DNA from: a virus
Virus genome (UHGV): UHGV-0217794
Strand: one strand, 5' to 3'
Length of the DNA stretch: 27,591 nucleotides
The notes beneath the pieces are model-generated. The model did not search any database, was not told the DNA's origin, and saw only the letters and a program-made list of their open reading frames with translations. Below are positions 4,924 to 11,817 of this stretch, piece by piece. The translations under genes and the position numbers were made by a program. Positions within the stretch are counted from its first letter, which is position 1. Every line of letters begins with the position of its first letter.

Positions 4924-5298
4924 ATGCTCATAGATTTGGTTTTACCTTACCCGCCGACGGTGAACACTTACTGGCGACGCCGTGGCAGCACATATTTTAT
5001 CTCGGAGGAGGGAAAGCGTTATCGCCGGGCTGTGGCGCTTATTGTTCGCCAGCAGCGGCTGAAATTAAGCCTGTCCGGAAGGCTGGCGATAAAGGTGATT
5101 GCAGAGCCACCGGATAAGCGTCGTCGCGACCTGGACAATATCCTGAAAGCACCGCTGGATGCGCTGACGCATGCGGGAGTGTTAATGGACGATGAGCAGT
5201 TTGATGAAATCAATATCGTTCGTGGTCAGCCAGTATCTGGTGGACGTCTGGGGGTGAAGATTTACCCCATAATGCATGAAGAGCAGGTCAAAAAATGA
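4924..5298 (+). CDS. rusA: crossover junction endodeoxyribonuclease RusA (Holliday junction resolvase)
   Basis: 124-aa protein starting MLIDLVLPYPPTVNTYWRRRG with conserved acidic residues (RRDLDNILKAPLDAL); AAGAGGTGA RBS; typical position just upstream of Q. Confidence 0.88.
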   Translation: MLIDLVLPYPPTVNTYWRRRGSTYFISEEGKRYRRAVALIVRQQRLKLSLSGRLAIKVIAEPPDKRRRDLDNILKAPLDALTHAGVLMDDEQFDEINIVRGQPVSGGRLGVKIYPIMHEEQVKK

Positions 5299-6116
5299 AA
5301 CTGGAAGATTTACCGAAATACTACTCCCCAAAATCCCCTTGCCTGACCGATGCATCGGCCTCAACGTCAAAAGATGCGCTGAGTATCACTGATGTGATGG
5401 CCGCGCAGGGCATGACACAGAATCGGGCTGAGATGGGGTTTTCTGCGTTCCTGGGGAAAATGGGCATCAGTATGAATGACAGGGCGCGGGCAACAGAATT
5501 ACTGGCAGATTATGCACTCAGTCGGTGCGATCGTGTGGCGGCGTTGAGAAAACTTCCGGCAGAAATAAAACCGGTAGTGATGCGCATTATGGCTTCGTAC
5601 GCTTTTGAGGATTATGCCCGCAGCGCAGCGAGTAAAAAGCAGTGCCCTTGTTGCTATGGGGAAAAATTTATTGAAAGCGTAGTTTTTACAAACAAGGTCC
5701 AGTATCCGGATGGTAAGCCGCCGGTATGGGCAAAGTGTACGAAAGGTGTGTATCCGTCTTACTGGGAAGAATGGAAAAAAGTCAGGGAGGTGGTAAAAGT
5801 TGCCTGTCCGGAGTGTGGCGGAAAGGGTGAGGTTTCCACCGCCTGTAAGGATTGCCGTGGGCGTGGTGTCGCCATTCACCGTGAAGAGTCGGTAAAACGT
5901 GGTATGCCTGTTATCAGAGACTGCCAGCGTTGTGGTGGTCGTGGCTATGAAAGACTACCATCAACGGAGGCATTTAATGCTATATGCGAGGTGACAAACC
6001 AGATAACACGCGCGTCATGGGAAAAAACAGTTAAGAAATTCTATGATGCGCTGGTGACCCGGTTTGATATTGAAGAAGCATGGGCTGAGCGGCAGTTAAA
6101 AAAGGTAACTAGGTAA
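5295..6116 (+). CDS. late-gene antiterminator, Q family (non-lambda type, multiple CxxC zinc motifs)
   Basis: 273-aa protein with CPCC...C and CPECGGKG...CKDCRGRG...CQRCGGRG motifs; ATGA overlap with rusA; directly followed by a promoter-terminator unit and the late region. Confidence 0.8.
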   Translation: MKLEDLPKYYSPKSPCLTDASASTSKDALSITDVMAAQGMTQNRAEMGFSAFLGKMGISMNDRARATELLADYALSRCDRVAALRKLPAEIKPVVMRIMASYAFEDYARSAASKKQCPCCYGEKFIESVVFTNKVQYPDGKPPVWAKCTKGVYPSYWEEWKKVREVVKVACPECGGKGEVSTACKDCRGRGVAIHREESVKRGMPVIRDCQRCGGRGYERLPSTEAFNAICEVTNQITRASWEKTVKKFYDALVTRFDIEEAWAERQLKKVTR

Positions 6117-6259: not shown

Positions 6260-6335
6260 GGCCCTTTAGCTCAGTGGTGAGAGCGAGCGACTCATAATCG
6301 CCAGGTCGCTGGTTCAAATCCAGCAAGGGCCACCA
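6260..6335 (+). tRNA. ileZ: tRNA with CAU anticodon, most likely tRNA-Ile2 (lysidine-modified, reads AUA; ileX/ileZ-like); elongator tRNA-Met not excluded
   Basis: 76-nt cloverleaf: acceptor GGCCCTT/AAGGGCC, D-arm GCTCAGTGGTGAGAGC, anticodon loop CTCATAA, T-arm GCTGGTTCAAATCCAGC, 3' ACCA; close to my recollection of E. coli ileX. Confidence 0.85.
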
Positions 6336-6435: not shown

Positions 6436-6512
6436 GCGTTGTTAGCTCAGCCGGACAGAGCAATTGCCTTCTAAGCAATCGGTCACTAGTTCGAATCCAG
6501 TACAGCGCGCCA
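6436..6512 (+). tRNA. tRNA-Arg (anticodon UCU, reads AGA/AGG; argN/argO/argU-like)
   Basis: 77-nt cloverleaf: acceptor GCGTTGT/ACAGCGC, D-arm TAGCTCAGCCGGACAGAGC, anticodon loop with TCT, T-loop GTTCGAATCC, 3' GCCA; one mismatch in the T-stem. Confidence 0.8.
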
Positions 6513-6976: not shown

Positions 6977-7450
6977 ATACATATCTGGATTATCACCTGT
7001 TACGGTAAAAAGTTATTGCTTACTGTTTTTGTGAATGGCATTGCAGCAGCCGGATAATGTCAGTGCTGGCTGACGGTGTGCTGGTGGCGGGTGTGGTGGT
7101 TATTGCTTTCCCGTTGCTGAAAAAGAAAACGCCAGACTGTTAGCCGGGTATCAGTTAGCGGGAGAAATTTTTAAATACTTCACAATTCAGGCGGTTGACT
7201 GTTGTCTGGTTTGCGGGGAGTTTGTTAAAAGAAACTGGCATGGTGAATCCCCCTGTGCGGAGGGGCAATCAGCGAGTAGGTATATGGGATAATCGCGTAT
7301 TCAGGTGCTGGTACTGAATTCACCGGGAGGCACCCGGCACCATGCACTTCAATAGATTCTCTCCACATTATGGATATTCTTTCAGAATATCCCACGCAGA
7401 CTTTGTGTAAATGTTAACAAATGTGCGTTTTATTTGATCTGATTCGCTGT

Positions 7451-7509: not shown

Positions 7510-7938
7510 ATGGGTTTTCGTAGCGCATCAATTCTTACGTTGATTATTAGTGGGATTATTATCGGGTGCACTGATGCTGTATCGACAAATTATCATGACC
7601 GTACATCATATTACTCCGATAAAGCAATAGAGACACAGTATGTGAGTTCATCTGAACGTACTTCTGATGTTAGTGAGGATATCCGTCTGTATGCCCATCA
7701 AATCAAGAGCGCCATCGAAAAACAGTTCGGGGATGCGAGTAAGTATTCAGGAAAAGAGTGTACACTGAGAATGCATATGGCCCCGAATGGCCTTCTACTG
7801 GAGGTTAAAAGAGAAAGTGGAGACCTCGATTTATGTCGTGAAGCGATGAATGCGATAAAGAATGCTGATATACCTGCCCCCCCTTCGCCGGAAGTATATA
7901 AAGTATTTCAAAATGGGGTGCTGGATTTTAAACCCTGA
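7510..7938 (+). CDS. lipoprotein with TolA domain-III-like C-terminal domain (142 aa)
   Basis: Signal peptide with lipobox IIGC; C-terminal about 85 aa (YAHQIKSAIEKQFGDASKYSGKECTLRMHMAPNGLLLEVKRESGDLDLCREAMNAIKNADIPAPPSPEVYKVFQNGVLDFKP) aligns residue-by-residue with my recollection of the E. coli TolA C-terminus (YAGQIKSAIESKFYDASSYAGKTCTLRIKLAPDGMLLDIKPEGGDPALCQAALAAAKLAKIPKPPSQAVYEVFKNAPLDFKP). Confidence 0.8.
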   Translation: MGFRSASILTLIISGIIIGCTDAVSTNYHDRTSYYSDKAIETQYVSSSERTSDVSEDIRLYAHQIKSAIEKQFGDASKYSGKECTLRMHMAPNGLLLEVKRESGDLDLCREAMNAIKNADIPAPPSPEVYKVFQNGVLDFKP

Positions 7939-8088: not shown

Positions 8089-8484
8089 GTGGGATTAAAG
8101 AAAATCGTTATGTTGACTTTTTGGGTCGGTTTTGTTGCGGGATGCACACCTTTACACCCTTCAGATTGCCACAAAACTACTGCTACAGGTAGTTGCAGTT
8201 CAGGACGCTGGGATGATCAGGATGAATGGGGGGCGCAAGCGCGGGGAATCAGAGCTGCAATTAATGCCAAACTTGATGAGCCGCATAACTGGAAAGGGAA
8301 AAAATGCAGGTTGCATATGGAATTCTCTCAGGATGGCACGGCGTTAAAAATATCTACCAGTAACGGTGATAAAGCCTATTGCGAAGCGATAAAGTCCGCA
8401 GCTCATAAAGCCAAATTTCCGGCCTTCAACAATCCGGAAGTCTACAGAGATTTTCAGAAATCTGGCTTTGACATGCGAGGTTAG
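8089..8484 (+). CDS. second lipoprotein, divergent paralog of the TolA-III-like lipoprotein (131 aa, GTG start)
   Basis: Signal peptide with lipobox VAGC; C-terminus shares the K-C-L ... G ... GD ... C ... A ... A-FP ... VY ... F ... D pattern with the upstream lipoprotein; GAGGAG RBS 6 nt before GTG. Confidence 0.75.
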   Translation: MGLKKIVMLTFWVGFVAGCTPLHPSDCHKTTATGSCSSGRWDDQDEWGAQARGIRAAINAKLDEPHNWKGKKCRLHMEFSQDGTALKISTSNGDKAYCEAIKSAAHKAKFPAFNNPEVYRDFQKSGFDMRG

Positions 8485-8735: not shown

Positions 8736-8951
8736 ATGAAATCCATGGACAAAATTTCAACAGGCATTGCCTACGGCACCTCCGCAGGCAGTGCTGGCTA
8801 CTGGTTTTTACAGCTGCTCGATAAAGTCACGCCCTCACAGTGGGCAGCAATAGGTGTGCTGGGTAGCCTGGTATTTGGCCTGCTGACGTACCTGACAAAC
8901 CTTTATTTCAAGATTAAAGAAGACAGGCGTAAGGCTGAGAGAGGAGAGTAA
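8736..8951 (+). CDS. pinholin, phage 21 S21-like (dual-start MKSMDK motif)
   Basis: [26 protein letters not shown] ... [35 protein letters not shown] closely matches my recollection of S21 (71/68 forms); GGAGGTGAGG RBS. Confidence 0.9.
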
Positions 8952-8955
8952 TCCA

Positions 8956-9300
8956 ATGACTCAAGTATACGAACTGGTTGTGAAAGGAGTCCGTAATTTT
9001 GAGAATAAAGTTGCGGTAACTTTAGCCTTACAGGACAAAGAACGCTTTGACGGTGAGATTTTTGACCTTGATATCACTATGGATCGTGTTGAAGGTGCTG
9101 CACTGGAGTTTTATGAGGCAGCAGCCAGAAGGAGAATCAGACAGGTGTTCTTGGATGTTGCTGCCGGGTTATGTGAAGGGGATGAGCAGTCGCCGGAAAA
9201 GCGCCCCATAATTTTAGAGGCGCAGAATGTGTGGATAACCTACAAAGGAAAGCTACCAGGAAGAATTACTGGTTATCTGAAGACTCCGCCGGAATGTTAA
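8956..9300 (+). CDS. hypothetical protein between holin and endolysin (114 aa)
   Basis: ATG 5 nt after the holin stop with AGGAGAG RBS; unknown function; same slot as Qin ydfR but homology not verified. Confidence 0.55.
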   Translation: MTQVYELVVKGVRNFENKVAVTLALQDKERFDGEIFDLDITMDRVEGAALEFYEAAARRRIRQVFLDVAAGLCEGDEQSPEKRPIILEAQNVWITYKGKLPGRITGYLKTPPEC

Positions 9301-9538
9301 TTTTAACAGCATATTTCTCTTCCAGTAATGCCACCAGCCACTTGAAGGAATTTTGTTGTTCCTGGGACCATTTGGGGCTGTGTGATTCAAGCTGGAGCGA
9401 TGCCAGTGTTGGTTGCATTTGTTCCCTGGGAATTGACAATGCCAGATATGAAAATGCGACAGTAAGGGCATTAACATCATCCCGAAGCCTGGAAATGCAG
9501 TCGAGCAACTCCTGAAGAGAAATGGTGTTATTGTCCAT
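9266..9538 (-). CDS. hypothetical reverse-strand protein (90 aa) inside the lysis cassette
   Basis: ATG at 9536-9538 preceded by a strong AAGAGGA Shine-Dalgarno at optimal spacing; convergent with and overlapping the 3' end of the upstream gene by 35 nt. Confidence 0.45.
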   Translation of the reverse strand: MDNNTISLQELLDCISRLRDDVNALTVAFSYLALSIPREQMQPTLASLQLESHSPKWSQEQQNSFKWLVALLEEKYAVKINIPAESSDNQ

Positions 9539-9643
9539 AAATAATCCTCTTGATTGTATTTACCTGTTCTCCGCCTGATTCAACAGGTTGGGACAGATAA
9601 ACATATCCTGGGTTCAGAAATCGATAAATCCTGATAAATATCC

Positions 9644-10177
9644 ATGAACGTAAAAGTCAAATACGGCCTGTCGGCTGCCGTTCTGGCGCTGATTGGTGCT
9701 GGTGCATCTGCTCCCCAGATACTTGACCAGTTTCTGGACGAAAAAGAAGGTAACCACACAATGGCATACCGTGATGGTTCCGGCATATGGACCATCTGTC
9801 GGGGTGCCACAGTGGTGGATGGAAAACCCGTTTTTCCCAATATGAAACTGTCGAAGGAAAAATGCGACCAGGTTAACGCTATTGAGCGTGATAAGGCTCT
9901 GGCATGGGTGGAGCGCAATATTAAAGTACCACTGACCGAACCACAAAAAGCGGGTATCGCGTCATTTTGTCCCTATAACATTGGCCCCGGTAAGTGTTTT
10001 CCGTCGACGTTTTATAAACGGCTGAATGCTGGTGATCGTAAAGGTGCATGCGAGGCGATTCGCTGGTGGATTAAGGACAGGGGGCGTGATTGCCGCATTC
10101 GTTCAAATAACTGTTACGGTCAGGTTATTCGTCGTGATCAGGAGAGCGCGTTAGTGTGCTGGGGGATCGACAGATAA
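9644..10177 (+). CDS. SAR endolysin (lysozyme, T4-lysozyme/R21-like with N-terminal signal-anchor-release domain)
   Basis: N-terminal Gly/Ala-rich weakly hydrophobic segment (GLSAAVLALIGAGASA) followed by a lysozyme-like domain; paired with a pinholin as in phage 21. Confidence 0.88.
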   Translation: MNVKVKYGLSAAVLALIGAGASAPQILDQFLDEKEGNHTMAYRDGSGIWTICRGATVVDGKPVFPNMKLSKEKCDQVNAIERDKALAWVERNIKVPLTEPQKAGIASFCPYNIGPGKCFPSTFYKRLNAGDRKGACEAIRWWIKDRGRDCRIRSNNCYGQVIRRDQESALVCWGIDR

Positions 10178-10336: not shown

Positions 10337-10474
10337 GTGTTTGATTTTAGCAAACTGATTCGGGAGATTCGAACTATGGTTGAAAAATTATCCACCTGGA
10401 AATTCATTCTTTTCTGGCTGGTGTTTGCGATTATGGCCTCCGGTTATTTCATTGCTCAGATACGCTGGTGGTGA
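10337..10474 (+). CDS. putative small membrane protein (45 aa from GTG, or 32 aa from ATG 10376)
   Basis: AAGGAG RBS just upstream of GTG; one hydrophobic helix ([20 protein letters not shown]); stop 1 nt before the Rz start; below the ORF-track size cutoff. Confidence 0.35.
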
Positions 10475-10475
10475 A

Positions 10476-10940
10476 ATGAAACCGGTTCTGTATGCGGTGA
10501 TTGTTATTCTACTGGTGGTCAGTGGTGCGCTGTTGCTGGCAATAGCCCATTACCGCGATAATGCCATCATCTACAAAGAGCAGAGAGATGATGCGAAGAC
10601 AAAACTCAGCCAGGCGAACGCAGCCATTACTGACATGCAGCAGCGCCAGCGTGATGTTACTGCACTCGATGCAAAATACCTGAAGGAATTAGCTGATGCG
10701 AAAGCTGAAAATGATGCTCTTCGTGATGATATTGCCGCTGGTCGTCGTCGGTTGCACATCAGAGCAGTCTGTCAGAGCGTGCGTGAAGCCACCGCCGCCT
10801 CCGGCGTGGGTAATGCAGCCGCCCCCCGACTGGCAGACACCGCTGAACGGGATTATTTCACCCTCAGAGAGCGACTGATAATAATGCAAAAACAACTTGA
10901 AGGGGCACAGCTATACATTCGAGAGCAATGCCTCAGATAA
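10476..10940 (+). CDS. i-spanin Rz
   Basis: N-terminal TM segment then coiled-coil-rich periplasmic domain; contains the embedded +1-frame Rz1 lipoprotein gene; follows the endolysin. Confidence 0.85.
10696..10878 (+). CDS. o-spanin Rz1 (proline-rich outer-membrane lipoprotein embedded in Rz)
   Basis: Signal peptide with lipobox VVGC, PPPPP-rich mature region, fully nested in the Rz gene in the +1 frame. Confidence 0.85.
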
Positions 10941-11257: not shown

Positions 11258-11662
11258 CTATATTAATGGTCTGTTATTTTCAACATCTTCCATGTACAAA
11301 AGATCGTGATCAAACGAATAGTAAAACCTTATGTTTTTATCTATATCTGTAATCCAGCGATAAACACCTGCTTTTGCTAAAGTGAGACGATATTGATGAA
11401 ATGTAGATTTACCTGATATAAGATTTCTGGCTGCTTCTTTAATTAATTCTGGTTTCTTTGATGTGCTAACTTTCACAAGTCCTCTACTGCCTCGAACTAA
11501 TAAAATATTATCATCATGAGTAATTAGTCTTATATTATCAGTAGCCAGATAATAAATATAATGCGCAATATTATGGCGTTTTAATTCGGAGTAAAACCAT
11601 GGGAAGTATAAATTACTTCTAACGTGTTCGAATATCTCTTGAAAAATATCTGCCTGCTCCAT
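11258..11662 (-). CDS. hypothetical protein, reverse-oriented moron at the bor-equivalent locus (134 aa from ATG 11662)
   Basis: Opposite strand to all flanking late genes; visibly AT-rich (not computed); AAGAGGA Shine-Dalgarno upstream of ATG; aromatic-rich sequence with no family I recognise. Confidence 0.6.
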   Translation of the reverse strand: MEQADIFQEIFEHVRSNLYFPWFYSELKRHNIAHYIYYLATDNIRLITHDDNILLVRGSRGLVKVSTSKKPELIKEAARNLISGKSTFHQYRLTLAKAGVYRWITDIDKNIRFYYSFDHDLLYMEDVENNRPLI

Positions 11663-11817
11663 CAGGAAATATCCTCTTGTCACTGCTACTTCTTACCATG
11701 AGCTTAGATAGTTTGCATGATTTGTTCTCTCACATCAATCTGATCCGACCTCATTGAGGTGGGCGTTGTGAATACCTGATAAGAAATGTGGGTCCTCCCA
11801 ATGGGGGAGGCTGGCAC

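What the first reader, a model, noticed from the sequence alone, without database searches (positions are those of the whole stretch)
8956..9640. Extra gene pair inserted between pinholin and SAR endolysin, one on the opposite strand
In phage-21-type cassettes the holin and endolysin are normally adjacent. Here about 690 bp separate them, holding a 114-aa ORF translationally coupled to the holin (8956-9300) and a convergent 90-aa minus-strand ORF (9266-9538) with an excellent Shine-Dalgarno, overlapping by 35 nt. A reverse-strand gene inside a late lysis operon implies its own promoter, and antisense transcription across the lysis genes could itself regulate lysis timing. Neither protein is recognisable to me.
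Basis: partly seen in the sequence, partly recalled or inferred. Interest (0 to 1): 0.5.

Follow-up and report, generated by a model that had tools for sequence, protein, structure and literature searches.

The report
Backward-facing add-on gene beside ydfR
Between the holin and endolysin genes of this E. coli-type prophage lie ydfR, a common gene of poorly known role, and an optional, uncharacterised backward-facing small gene that recurs in other prophage operons, always facing a forward partner, much like a known prophage defence/antidote pair.

Summary
The 114-aa plus-strand ORF (8956-9300) and the 90-aa minus-strand ORF (9266-9538) exist, overlap by 35 nt, and both are real genes (dN/dS about 0.35).

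The forward ORF is not unrecognisable. It is a YdfR/DUF1327 protein, the usual occupant of this slot in Qin, BP-4795 and 80% of complete E. coli genomes.

The reverse ORF (phrog_2411, 'Ybl58') is an optional cargo of about 295 bp, present in 22% of E. coli genomes, including REL606 and ST131, but in only 3 sequenced phages. The same slot can be empty or hold an unrelated reverse gene (phrog_2572).

Distant homologues sit in tail, early-left and holin-upstream positions of other enterobacterial prophages. They are always antisense to the operon. They always converge on a small operon-sense ORF, and in four genera (Escherichia, Citrobacter, Atlantibacter, Yersinia) that ORF's C-terminus carries the 'ITGxLKxP' tail found at the end of this YdfR. 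A structure-conserved hairpin precedes them.

This matches the layout of the Pseudomonas Tab/anti-Tab defence pair, but there is no sequence homology. Best reading: a moron expressed from the prophage, paired with a late-expressed partner. Function is untested. Antisense control of lysis timing is not supported.

The parts
8736..8951 (+). S21-type class II holin (pinholin). Met1 and Met4 give the dual start typical of S21 71/68.
   Evidence: PF04971, E 4.3e-36. phrog_20 and phrog_9876, holin. The dual-start reading rests on established knowledge of S21.
8956..9300 (+). ORF-A: ydfR-family gene (DUF1327), 114 aa, translationally coupled to the holin. It has an N-domain (residues 1-72, three beta strands plus a helix) and a C-terminal tail (residues 73-114).
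   Evidence: PF07041, 142.4 bits. phrog_406 and phrog_2091. Annotated 'YdfR family protein' in E. coli genomes. AF2: N-domain pLDDT 70-89, tail below 50. dN/dS 0.38.
9244..9297 (+). Conserved tail motif KGKLPGRITGYLKTPPEC at the YdfR C-terminus. The same motif ends the small ORFs that converge on ORF-B homologues in Citrobacter, Atlantibacter and Yersinia prophages.
   Evidence: Translations. A tail HMM finds the held-out Yersinia partner at E 6.5e-5 among 2434 background ORFs. The tail is nearly invariant within the YdfR family.
9266..9538 (-). ORF-B: 90-aa acidic (pI 4.6) cytoplasmic three-helix protein, family phrog_2411 / 'Ybl58'. It is the optional reverse-strand cargo (moron).
   Evidence: phrog_2411, E 3.4e-53. 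dN/dS 0.36, intact in 48 of 49 cassettes. Codon-usage LLR +27 bits. AF2 pLDDT 77.7 with helices 8-35, 38-52 and 59-78. 129 homologue clusters in Enterobacterales. pI.
9266..9300 (.). 35-nt convergent 3' overlap of ORF-A and ORF-B. The last 11 codons of each lie antisense to the other.
   Evidence: The same overlap (7-47 nt) recurs in every prophage context of the family and in Tab/anti-Tab of phage JBD26 (47 nt).
9195..9223 (-). Weak terminator-like hairpin downstream of ORF-B, inside ydfR: GCGCC, 13-nt loop, GGCGC, then TTTTCC. This is a candidate only.
   Evidence: Read from the sequence. The terminator scan did not call it because the loop exceeds 8 nt. It is also present in cassettes that lack ORF-B.
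9293..9592 (.). Variable segment (about 295 bp), present here and absent from cassettes such as phage 606R7 and BP-4795. It carries ORF-B apart from its last codons, plus its leader.
   Evidence: Three-way alignment with 606R7 and K-12 Qin. The insert is in 1221 of 5426 E. coli genomes and 3 phage records.
9545..9551 (-). Shine-Dalgarno AAGAGGA of ORF-B, 6 nt before the ATG.
9574..9587 (-). Leader hairpin CCTG-TTGAAT-CAGG (GCCTG/CAGGC in most E. coli copies). It is the counterpart of an 8-bp hairpin conserved by covariation upstream of the cargo genes in other prophages.
   Evidence: Invariant 5' arm and loop among 49 cassettes. The window leader folds at -21.1 kcal/mol, z -2.85. In six diverged contexts, 93.8% of cells are paired, 6 of 8 pairs carry compensatory double changes, and 0 of 500 shuffles reach the observed value.
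9600..9628 (-). Candidate weak sigma-70 promoter of ORF-B: -35-like TTTATC (9628-9623), 17-nt spacer, -10-like TATGTT (9605-9600). It lies within a conserved block, CCC(T/A)GG(A/T)TATG(T/A)T.
   Evidence: Only 7 of 12 consensus matches, below the scan threshold. The block is invariant in E. coli cassettes and recurs next to the cargo in Citrobacter, Atlantibacter and phage 2H10.
9644..10177 (+). SAR-type phage lysozyme (R21-like). It has no obvious SD in this arrangement.
   Evidence: PF00959, E 2.7e-23. phrog_7, endolysin. Upstream sequence CCTGATAAATATCCATG.
10443..10940 (+). Rz spanin, with embedded Rz1 (10696-10878). This marks the end of the lysis cassette.
   Evidence: PF03245, E 1.1e-48. 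The Rz1-like lipoprotein ORF appears.

Best explanation
The holin-endolysin gap holds a resident gene plus an optional reverse-strand accessory cassette.

ydfR (DUF1327) is the usual gene in this slot. It is co-transcribed and translationally coupled with the pinholin.

Between ydfR and R lies a polymorphic slot. It can be empty, or it can carry one of at least two unrelated small reverse genes. Here it carries ORF-B, a 10-kDa acidic, cytoplasmic three-helix protein.

Inferred mechanism:
1. ORF-B is transcribed leftwards from its own weak promoter (TTTATC-17-TATGTT, 9628-9600). Its leader begins with a conserved hairpin.
2. It is therefore made in the lysogen while the late operon is silent, and it serves the lysogen, most plausibly as a phage-exclusion or defence protein.
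3. Its constant companion is an operon-sense ORF that converges on it and overlaps its 3' end. Here that ORF is the C-terminal 'ITGxLKxP' tail of YdfR.
4. The companion is made only when late transcription runs. By analogy with anti-Tab, it neutralises ORF-B during the prophage's own lytic cycle.

Shown: both are genes; ORF-B is optional; the family is mobile between operons and always antisense to them; the partner motif and the leader hairpin are conserved.

Inferred: the promoter, expression in the lysogen, the protein-protein antagonism and the defence role.
For: Gene status:
- dN/dS, codon usage and distant homologues.

Optional cargo:
- The alignment with 606R7 and Qin shows a segment of about 295 bp present only here.
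- ORF-B is in 1221 of 5426 E. coli genomes, while ydfR is in 4349.
- Phage 2H10 and 314 E. coli genomes carry an unrelated 86-aa reverse ORF (phrog_2572) in the same slot behind the same upstream block.

Mobility and orientation. Homologues are found:
- upstream of the holin in Citrobacter;
- between tail genes M and L in Atlantibacter;
- between tail genes I and J in Yersinia;
- near the terminase;
- between a cI-like repressor and recT.
In each case the gene is on the strand opposite to the operon.

Partner:
- A convergent, overlapping operon-sense ORF is present in every prophage context.
- The tail motif is shared by E. coli, Citrobacter, Atlantibacter and Yersinia. The held-out Yersinia sequence scores E 6.5e-5.
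- The YdfR tail is predicted to be disordered on its own (pLDDT below 50), as short binding motifs often are.
- The YdfR C-terminus changes with the cargo: 114 aa with ORF-B, 176-183 aa with phrog_2572.

Leader hairpin:
- Conserved by covariation.

Precedent, Tab/anti-Tab of phage JBD26:
- Tab is an 83-aa reverse gene with its own promoter.
- Anti-Tab is an 83-aa late-operon-sense gene. The two converge with a 47-nt overlap between two late genes.
- The proteins bind each other, and anti-Tab alone lets a phage escape Tab (PMC10884400).

Orphan states fit this logic:
- Partner only, in free phages (606R7, BP-4795).
- ORF-B only, in a decayed cassette next to iha, on a plasmid, and in Serratia chromosomes.
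Against: - There are no expression data. The promoter candidate matches only 7 of 12 consensus positions, and no terminator was called.
- There is no sequence homology to Tab or anti-Tab (hhalign probability 0.1).
- There is no hit in PADLOC, Pfam, NCBIfam or PDB, and no structural neighbour.
- The tail motif is statistically supported in only four genera. It is weak (E about 2) in the Serratia ficaria-type partners and undetected in the P0096 context.
- Tail-bearing YdfR without ORF-B is the commoner state in sequenced phages. With phrog_2572 the tail persists, so the tail is not strictly tied to ORF-B.
- The only experimental data on YdfR concern its N-domain binding RNase E (PMC13232886). 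They say nothing about ORF-B.
Confidence: 0.4

Rival explanations
1. Plain moron with no functional link to ydfR. ORF-B is an independently expressed lysogenic-conversion gene. Its role could be a small host-physiology regulator, as its Serratia homologue's position between dinI and bssS might hint. It simply landed at a permissive junction. The convergent ORF tail is conserved for a reason of its own.
For: - Presence/absence polymorphism, and a different cargo in the same slot.
- Partner-less chromosomal homologues in Serratia, Sodalis and a metagenomic taxon.
- ORF-B remains intact in a decayed cassette beside iha and on a plasmid.
- Tail-bearing YdfR commonly occurs without ORF-B.
Against: - A convergent overlapping partner recurs in seven independent prophage contexts.
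- A peptide motif is shared across four genera while the nucleotide sequence is not.
- The YdfR C-terminus co-varies with cargo type.
Confidence: 0.3
2. The reverse transcript acts as an antisense RNA across ydfR, and perhaps the holin, and so tunes lysis timing. The protein would be secondary.
For: - A 35-nt 3' overlap with ydfR and no strong terminator after ORF-B, so read-through into ydfR and S is possible.
- The convergent overlap is conserved.
- R loses its translational coupling in this arrangement.
Against: - The family is under protein-level selection and keeps a conserved three-helix core at 26-43% identity.
- It occurs in tail and early operons and in host chromosomes, where no lysis gene is nearby.
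- In Citrobacter it lies upstream of the holin, pointing away from it, and its 3' end is antisense only to the small partner ORF.
Confidence: 0.1
3. ORF-B is not a gene. It would be a chance ORF, or the shadow of a plus-strand gene (9231-9515), inside a non-coding spacer or RNA element.
For: - Codon-position diversity is atypical: position 1 is lower than position 2, which is about equal to position 3.
- dN/dS is the same for the phase-locked plus-strand frame.
- A structured element lies in the leader.
Against: - Codon-usage LLR is +27 bits for the minus strand and -8 for the plus frame.
- ORF-B has a strong SD.
- The AF2 three-helix model reaches pLDDT 78 from a shallow alignment.
- Homologues with 26-43% identity and the same length exist in other genera and contexts.
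- In-frame indels only occur in several variants.
Confidence: 0.04

Closest known systems
essQ-ydfR-rrrQ of the K-12 Qin cryptic prophage, and the S-ydfR-R cassettes of BP-4795, mEp460 and 606R7
   Same: The same S21-type holin, a DUF1327/YdfR gene coupled to it, and the same SAR lysozyme and Rz/Rz1. The N-domain of ORF-A is about 90% identical to K-12 YdfR.
   Different: - K-12 and mEp460 YdfR (103 aa) have a different C-terminal tail, and their stop codon overlaps the R start. There is no reverse gene.
- BP-4795 and 606R7 have the ITGxLKTPP tail and a 50-63-nt spacer, but no cargo.
- Here a reverse gene sits in the spacer.
Tab / anti-Tab of Pseudomonas phage JBD26 (Patel et al. 2024, PMC10884400)
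   Same: - A reverse-strand small protein (83 aa against 90 aa) between two late genes.
- It faces an operon-sense small gene that is coupled to the preceding late gene.
- The two converge with overlapping 3' ends (47 nt against 35 nt).
- Orphan 'antidote-only' phages are expected under this logic, and they are seen here.
   Different: - No detectable sequence similarity of ORF-B to Tab, or of YdfR to anti-Tab.
- Different host clade and phage type.
- Tab homologues are always between the terminase genes, whereas this family occupies many slots.
- No functional data exist here.
Classical lambdoid morons (lambda bor and lom, HK97 gp15; Juhala et al. 2000, cited in PMC10884400)
   Same: An extra gene present in some closely related phages and absent from others at the same junction, often antisense to the late operon, and thought to be expressed from the prophage.
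   Different: - Textbook morons carry a clear sigma-70 promoter and a factor-independent terminator. Here both are weak or uncalled.
- This one travels with a convergent partner ORF and a structured leader.
phrog_2572 reverse ORF of phage 2H10 (the alternative cargo of the same slot)
   Same: The same junction, the same orientation, a similar size (86 aa), the same upstream block GGATATGTT plus hairpin, and an overlap with the 3' end of an (extended) ydfR.
   Different: Unrelated sequence (hhalign probability 0.2). It is paired with a YdfR of 176-183 aa that carries an extra C-terminal segment. It is found in 314 genomes, against 1221 for ORF-B.

Membership tests
YdfR / DUF1327 (PF07041), for ORF-A | Sequence match above the Pfam gathering score. 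| tested here: met
   142.4 bits against a cut-off of 25, E 5.3e-42, covering residues 1-112. phrog_406, E 1e-63.
YdfR / DUF1327 (PF07041), for ORF-A | Position between the class II holin and the lysozyme of an Escherichia lambdoid lysis cassette. | tested here: met
   Same synteny as Qin, BP-4795 and 606R7.
YdfR / DUF1327 (PF07041), for ORF-A | Binding of the RNase E catalytic domain and co-purification of RNA, as reported for K-12 YdfR residues 1-72. | not testable with these tools
Phage-21-type lysis cassette | S21-type class II holin, SAR lysozyme and Rz/Rz1, in that order. | tested here: met
   PF04971, PF00959 and PF03245. The N-terminal hydrophobic segment KYGLSAAVLALIGAGASA of R is visible.
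Moron (Juhala/Hendrix sense), for ORF-B | Present in some closely related phages and absent from others at the same junction. | tested here: met
   (606R7 and Qin lack it). It is in 1221 of 5426 genomes, against 4349 with ydfR. It is in 3 of 101 ydfR-bearing phage records.
Moron (Juhala/Hendrix sense), for ORF-B | Its own promoter upstream and a terminator downstream. | tested here: inconclusive
   No site passes the scan. The best candidate, TTTATC-17-TATGTT, scores 7 of 12 but lies in a conserved block. Only a weak hairpin plus a run of four T lies downstream.
Moron (Juhala/Hendrix sense), for ORF-B | Expression from the repressed prophage. | not testable with these tools
   No transcript data are available here.
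Moron (Juhala/Hendrix sense), for ORF-B | Base composition different from the neighbouring genes. | tested here: inconclusive
   GC is 0.44 for the insert, 0.49-0.51 for S, R and Rz, and also 0.44 for the ydfR N-domain.
Tab / anti-Tab defence pair | Sequence homology to Tab (for ORF-B) or to anti-Tab (for YdfR). | tested here: not met
   hhalign probability 0.1 for both comparisons.
Tab / anti-Tab defence pair | Architecture: a reverse small gene, plus an operon-sense small gene coupled to the preceding late gene, converging with overlapping 3' ends inside a late operon. | tested here: met
   Window compared with JBD26 genes 30 and 31. The architecture recurs in seven prophage contexts.
Tab / anti-Tab defence pair | Direct binding of the two proteins. 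Anti-phage activity of the reverse gene. Lethality of losing the partner alone. | not testable with these tools
   This needs two-hybrid or pull-down assays, phage challenge and phage genetics.
Known defence or toxin-antitoxin families | A match to a PADLOC, Pfam or NCBIfam model. | tested here: not met
   No hit for ORF-B in PADLOC, NCBIfam or Pfam.

The most novel reading that the evidence does not exclude
ORF-B and the 'ITGxLKxP' tail are the two halves of a portable defence/self-immunity cassette of enterobacterial temperate phages. It would be analogous to Tab/anti-Tab but built from unrelated proteins. It inserts into late or early operons. Its defence half is read backwards from the prophage, behind a structured leader. 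Its antidote half is read with the host operon. The ydfR-R junction would then be a hot spot where such cassettes are exchanged, with at least two cargo types. The C-terminus of many DUF1327 proteins would be a fused antidote, and 22% of E. coli genomes, including the B strain REL606, would carry an undescribed anti-phage gene.
Probability: 0.3. Interest if true: 0.7.

Novelty: new member of a known kind. Interest (0 to 1): 0.5.

Why it matters
ydfR is one of the commonest prophage genes in E. coli and still has no accepted role. ORF-B is an uncharacterised family found in about one E. coli genome in five, including the laboratory B strain REL606 and ST131.

If the pair works like Tab/anti-Tab, three things follow:
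- It would add a new prophage defence/counter-defence module for lambdoid phages.
- It would explain the variable C-termini of DUF1327 proteins.
- It would mark the ydfR-R junction as a swap site for small accessory genes.

The hypothesis is cheap to test in strains that already carry the cassette. If it is only a moron of unknown function, it remains an ordinary piece of lambdoid mosaicism.

Tried and rejected
- **Function of ORF-B by homology or fold.** Nothing was found in Pfam, NCBIfam, PADLOC, PDB sequences (single sequence and profile), Foldseek against PDB (best E 1.8) or BFVD (best E 0.5). The afdb50 library was unavailable.
- **Strand assignment by dN/dS alone.** This failed because the plus-strand ORF 9231-9515 shares third codon positions with ORF-B. 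Codon usage and distant homologues resolved it.
- **LexA box upstream of ORF-B.** The inverted repeat CTGTT-N13-AACAG has the wrong spacing for a LexA site. Rejected by reading the sequence.
- **The CCTGTT/AACAGG stem (9564-9588).** It is not conserved among E. coli cassettes. The conserved element is the inner GCCTG-TTGAAT-CAGGC hairpin.
- **An alternative -10, TACAAT, 14 nt before the ATG.** Rejected because its transcript would start inside the SD.
- **Rfam.** No known RNA family lies in 8956-9640.
- **Literature.** There are no papers on 'ybl58'.
- **Searches that yielded little.** The search for related loci on genome contigs with the diverse alignment failed because there was no conserved word. 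Viral-contig searches with distant members added few loci.
- **Homology between the 2H10 reverse ORF and ORF-B.** Rejected, hhalign probability 0.2.
Full report
**1. What is there**

The window is a lambdoid prophage late region. In order it contains:
- Q antiterminator, 5295-6116
- tRNA-Met and tRNA-Arg
- an STnc100 sRNA match
- two TolA-C-terminal-domain lipoprotein-like genes
- the lysis cassette
- a reverse DUF1398 gene
- terminase and morphogenesis genes

The lysis cassette is of the phage-21 type:
- S21-type holin, 8736-8951
- SAR lysozyme, 9644-10177
- Rz/Rz1, 10443-10940

- ORF-A (8956-9300, +, 114 aa) starts 4 nt after the holin stop, behind a GAGGAG.
- ORF-B (9266-9538, -, 90 aa) has AAGAGGA 6 nt before its ATG.
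- The two converge and overlap by 35 nt.

**2. Are they genes?**

I fetched 80 IMG/VR loci with ORF-B. All are collinear with the window from the holin to the lysozyme.

Pairwise dN/dS over 49 unique cassettes:

| Gene or frame | dN/dS |
|---|---|
| holin | 0.09 |
| lysozyme | 0.10 |
| ORF-A | 0.38 |
| ORF-B | 0.36 |
| out-of-phase frames | 0.6-1.9 |

ORF-B is intact in 48 of 49 cassettes.

There is a complication. The plus-strand ORF 9231-9515 shares third codon positions with ORF-B, so it shows the same dN/dS. The codon-position diversity of ORF-B is also atypical. The strand is settled by other evidence:
- Codon usage gives +27 bits for the minus frame and -8 for the plus frame. Known genes of the window score +23 to +80, and their antisense frames score -31 to -90.
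- ORF-B has a strong SD.
- AF2 gives a three-helix model at pLDDT 77.7.
- Homologues of the same length at 26-43% identity exist in other genera, with a shared core, ELL..I..LR..VN.L..AFSYLAFS...E.....I.AL.FES.N.

ORF-B is acidic (pI 4.6) and has no signal peptide or transmembrane segment.

**3. ORF-A is YdfR**

ORF-A matches DUF1327 at 142 bits against a cut-off of 25. It is annotated 'YdfR family protein' in E. coli.

The same gene lies between essQ and rrrQ in K-12 Qin. It also lies between S and R in BP-4795, mEp460 and many induced E. coli phages.

Its distribution:
- 4349 of 5426 complete E. coli genomes.
- 101 of the 427 phage records that carry this holin type.

The only functional data are recent. 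K-12 YdfR residues 1-72 bind the catalytic half of RNase E in two-hybrid and pull-down assays, and the protein co-purifies RNA (PMC13232886).

**4. ORF-B is an optional cargo in a polymorphic slot**

Phage 606R7 has S-ydfR-63 nt-R. Against it, the window has an extra segment of about 295 bp (roughly 9293-9592). This segment holds ORF-B apart from its last codons, plus about 50 nt of leader.

K-12 Qin and mEp460 have a 103-aa YdfR with a different tail, and its stop codon overlaps the R start.

The insert is found in:
- 1221 of 5426 E. coli genomes, including REL606 and ST131 strains.
- 28 plasmid places.
- only 3 phage records: Chlobot, phiSTEC1575-Stx2k and 783R2.

The exact protein of the window is on 428 contigs. 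Some sources call it Ybl58, and no paper mentions that name.

Phage 2H10 and 314 E. coli genomes carry an unrelated 86-aa reverse ORF (phrog_2572) in the same slot. It is unannotated in the 2H10 record, and there ydfR is extended to 176-183 aa.

**5. The family is mobile and always antisense**

A profile search raised the family to 129 clusters. They come from Escherichia, Shigella, Citrobacter, Atlantibacter, Yersinia, many Serratia species, Sodalis and relatives.

| Context | Position of the homologue |
|---|---|
| Citrobacter prophage | just upstream of the holin |
| Atlantibacter prophage | between tail genes M and L |
| Yersinia prophage | between tail genes I and J |
| metagenomic phage contig (taxon unknown) | near the terminase |
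| Serratia ficaria-type prophages | between the cI-like repressor and recT |
| Serratia species chromosome | between dinI and bssS |
| Sodalis and one metagenomic taxon | chromosomal |

In every prophage case the gene is on the strand opposite to the surrounding operon.

Two diverged E. coli copies lie outside any cassette. One is next to iha, where remnants of ydfR and R flank an intact ORF-B. The other follows an autotransporter gene on a plasmid.

**6. A constant partner**

In every prophage context a small ORF converges on the family member and overlaps its 3' end. It is 52-85 aa long, depending on the start codon chosen (52-71 aa as called on the contigs). It is co-oriented with the host operon.

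The C-termini share a motif:

| Source | C-terminal sequence |
|---|---|
| window YdfR | ...KGKLPGRITGYLKTPPEC |
| Citrobacter | ...NGETRNEKITGSLRAPIKL |
| Atlantibacter | ...KGNIFSDQIFGDLKKPPSY |
| Yersinia | ...DGELYSERITGSLFAPLSAHPSE |

I built an HMM from the first three plus BP-4795. It retrieves the held-out Yersinia ORF at E 6.5e-5 among 2434 background ORFs. The Serratia ficaria-type partners score only E about 2, and the partner in the P0096 context is not detected. The motif is therefore solid for four genera and only suggestive beyond them.

The nucleotide sequences of these regions do not align, so the conservation is at the peptide level. The partners are not DUF1327 proteins, and their N-termini differ.

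Within YdfR the tail half is the most conserved part, yet AF2 cannot fold it alone.

**7. A conserved leader**

Upstream of the cargo genes lies a block, CCC(T/A)GG(A/T)TATG(T/A)T, followed by a hairpin.

In six diverged contexts the 8-bp stem behaves as follows:
- 93.8% of cells are paired.
- 6 of 8 pairs carry compensatory double changes.
- 0 of 500 shuffles reach the observed value.
- Slid controls give 15-42% pairing.

In the window the counterpart is CCTG-TTGAAT-CAGG (9587-9574, minus strand). Its 5' arm and loop are invariant among E. coli cassettes. The leader folds better than shuffled sequences, z -2.85.

TATGTT (9605-9600), with TTTATC 17 nt upstream, is the only positionally conserved promoter candidate. 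It matches only 7 of 12 consensus positions, and the scan called nothing. The promoter is therefore inferred, not shown.

**8. How it most likely works**

The layout has four features:
- a reverse small gene between two late genes;
- an operon-sense small gene facing it;
- that operon-sense gene coupled to the preceding late gene;
- overlapping 3' ends.

This is the layout of Tab/anti-Tab in Pseudomonas phage JBD26. There Tab (83 aa) has its own promoter and is made from the prophage as a defence protein. Anti-Tab (83 aa) is made with the late operon and binds Tab. Anti-Tab alone lets another phage escape Tab (PMC10884400). In the JBD26 record, genes 30 and 31 overlap by 47 nt.

There is no sequence similarity between the two systems. 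This is a 'works like' argument, not a membership claim.

The model accounts for three observations:
- Tail-only phages (606R7, BP-4795) would be carriers of the counter-defence.
- ORF-B-only copies in decayed prophages and in Serratia chromosomes would be retained defence genes.
- The YdfR C-terminus changes with cargo type.

| Claim | My estimate |
|---|---|
| ORF-B is a protein-coding gene | about 0.9 |
| It is an independently expressed moron | about 0.7 |
| It pairs with the tail as a Tab-like module | 0.3-0.4 |
| Antisense control of lysis timing is its main role | about 0.1 |

**9. Verdict**

ORF-A belongs to a known family in its usual place. ORF-B is a new, uncharacterised member of a known kind, the prophage moron. 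It has an unusually well-defined architecture of partner tail, leader hairpin and exchangeable slot, which makes a specific hypothesis testable. Interest is moderate.

Noticed in passing
window 7510-7938 and 8089-8484 (+): Two tandem lipoprotein-like genes with a TolA C-terminal domain (PF06519, E 2e-23 and 1e-14) lie in the accessory region between Q and the holin. A Citrobacter prophage that carries an ORF-B homologue also has one (L088 651-1094).
   Followed up: no
window 7209-7399 (+); 6260-6335; 6436-6512: An STnc100 sRNA match (108 bits against a gathering score of 47), plus tRNA-Met(cat) and tRNA-Arg(tct), lie downstream of Q.
   Followed up: no
window 11258-11683 (-): A reverse-strand DUF1398 (ydfO-like) gene with only 32% GC lies just after Rz/Rz1. 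It looks like a second reverse moron flanking the lysis cassette.
   Followed up: no
L112 (phage 2H10, NC_049950), locus 1292 down to 1035, minus strand: An unannotated 86-aa reverse ORF (phrog_2572, E 1e-53) occupies the same ydfR-R slot behind the same GGATATGTT-plus-hairpin block. It is present in 314 of 5426 E. coli genomes. In some of these, PGAP marks the extended ydfR as a pseudogene.
   Followed up: partly
window 9574-9587 (-); alignment A5 of L088, L094, L099, L097, L102, L112: A hairpin upstream of the reverse cargo genes is conserved as structure, not sequence. Six of 8 pairs carry compensatory changes. Two close relatives (L094 and L099, about 92% protein identity) have completely different perfect 8-bp stems. 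Its function is unknown; it could be a 5' stabiliser of the mRNA.
   Followed up: partly
L086 2946-3218 (E. coli GF60, next to iha); L085 2960-3229 (plasmid pUTAK-5-1): Diverged ORF-B copies (about 73% nucleotide identity) lie outside any lysis cassette. The iha-adjacent copy is flanked by recognisable remnants of ydfR and R, and only ORF-B is intact. The plasmid copy follows an autotransporter gene. Both are surrounded by IS elements.
   Followed up: partly
L087 5001-5282; L091 and L092 4001-4279 (Serratia): Serratia species carry a chromosomal homologue (92-93 aa) between dinI and bssS, on the same strand, downstream of the dinI terminator and with no convergent partner.
   Followed up: partly
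window 9231-9515 (+): A 94-aa plus-strand ORF is the phase-locked antisense of ORF-B. It stays open in 44-48 of 49 cassettes and shows the same dN/dS, but it has antisense-like codon usage. It shows how dN/dS alone can mislead about the coding strand.
   Followed up: yes
window 9620-9646 (+): The lysozyme gene has no evident Shine-Dalgarno sequence here (CCTGATAAATATCCATG). In K-12 Qin the ydfR stop codon overlaps the R start. The cargo therefore breaks the translational coupling of R.
   Followed up: no
L026; H18 (E. coli ECC-1470): Some cassettes are interrupted. There is an insertion of about 1.3 kb inside ydfR in L026, and an ISEc52 transposase lies within the cassette in ECC-1470.
   Followed up: no
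L084 (REL606, NC_012967 1416625-1418524): In E. coli B REL606 the whole essD-ydfR-ORF-B-R-Rz cassette sits inside the Rac remnant, directly after sieB/ydaF and before trkG. It is detached from any Q gene or late promoter.
   Followed up: no
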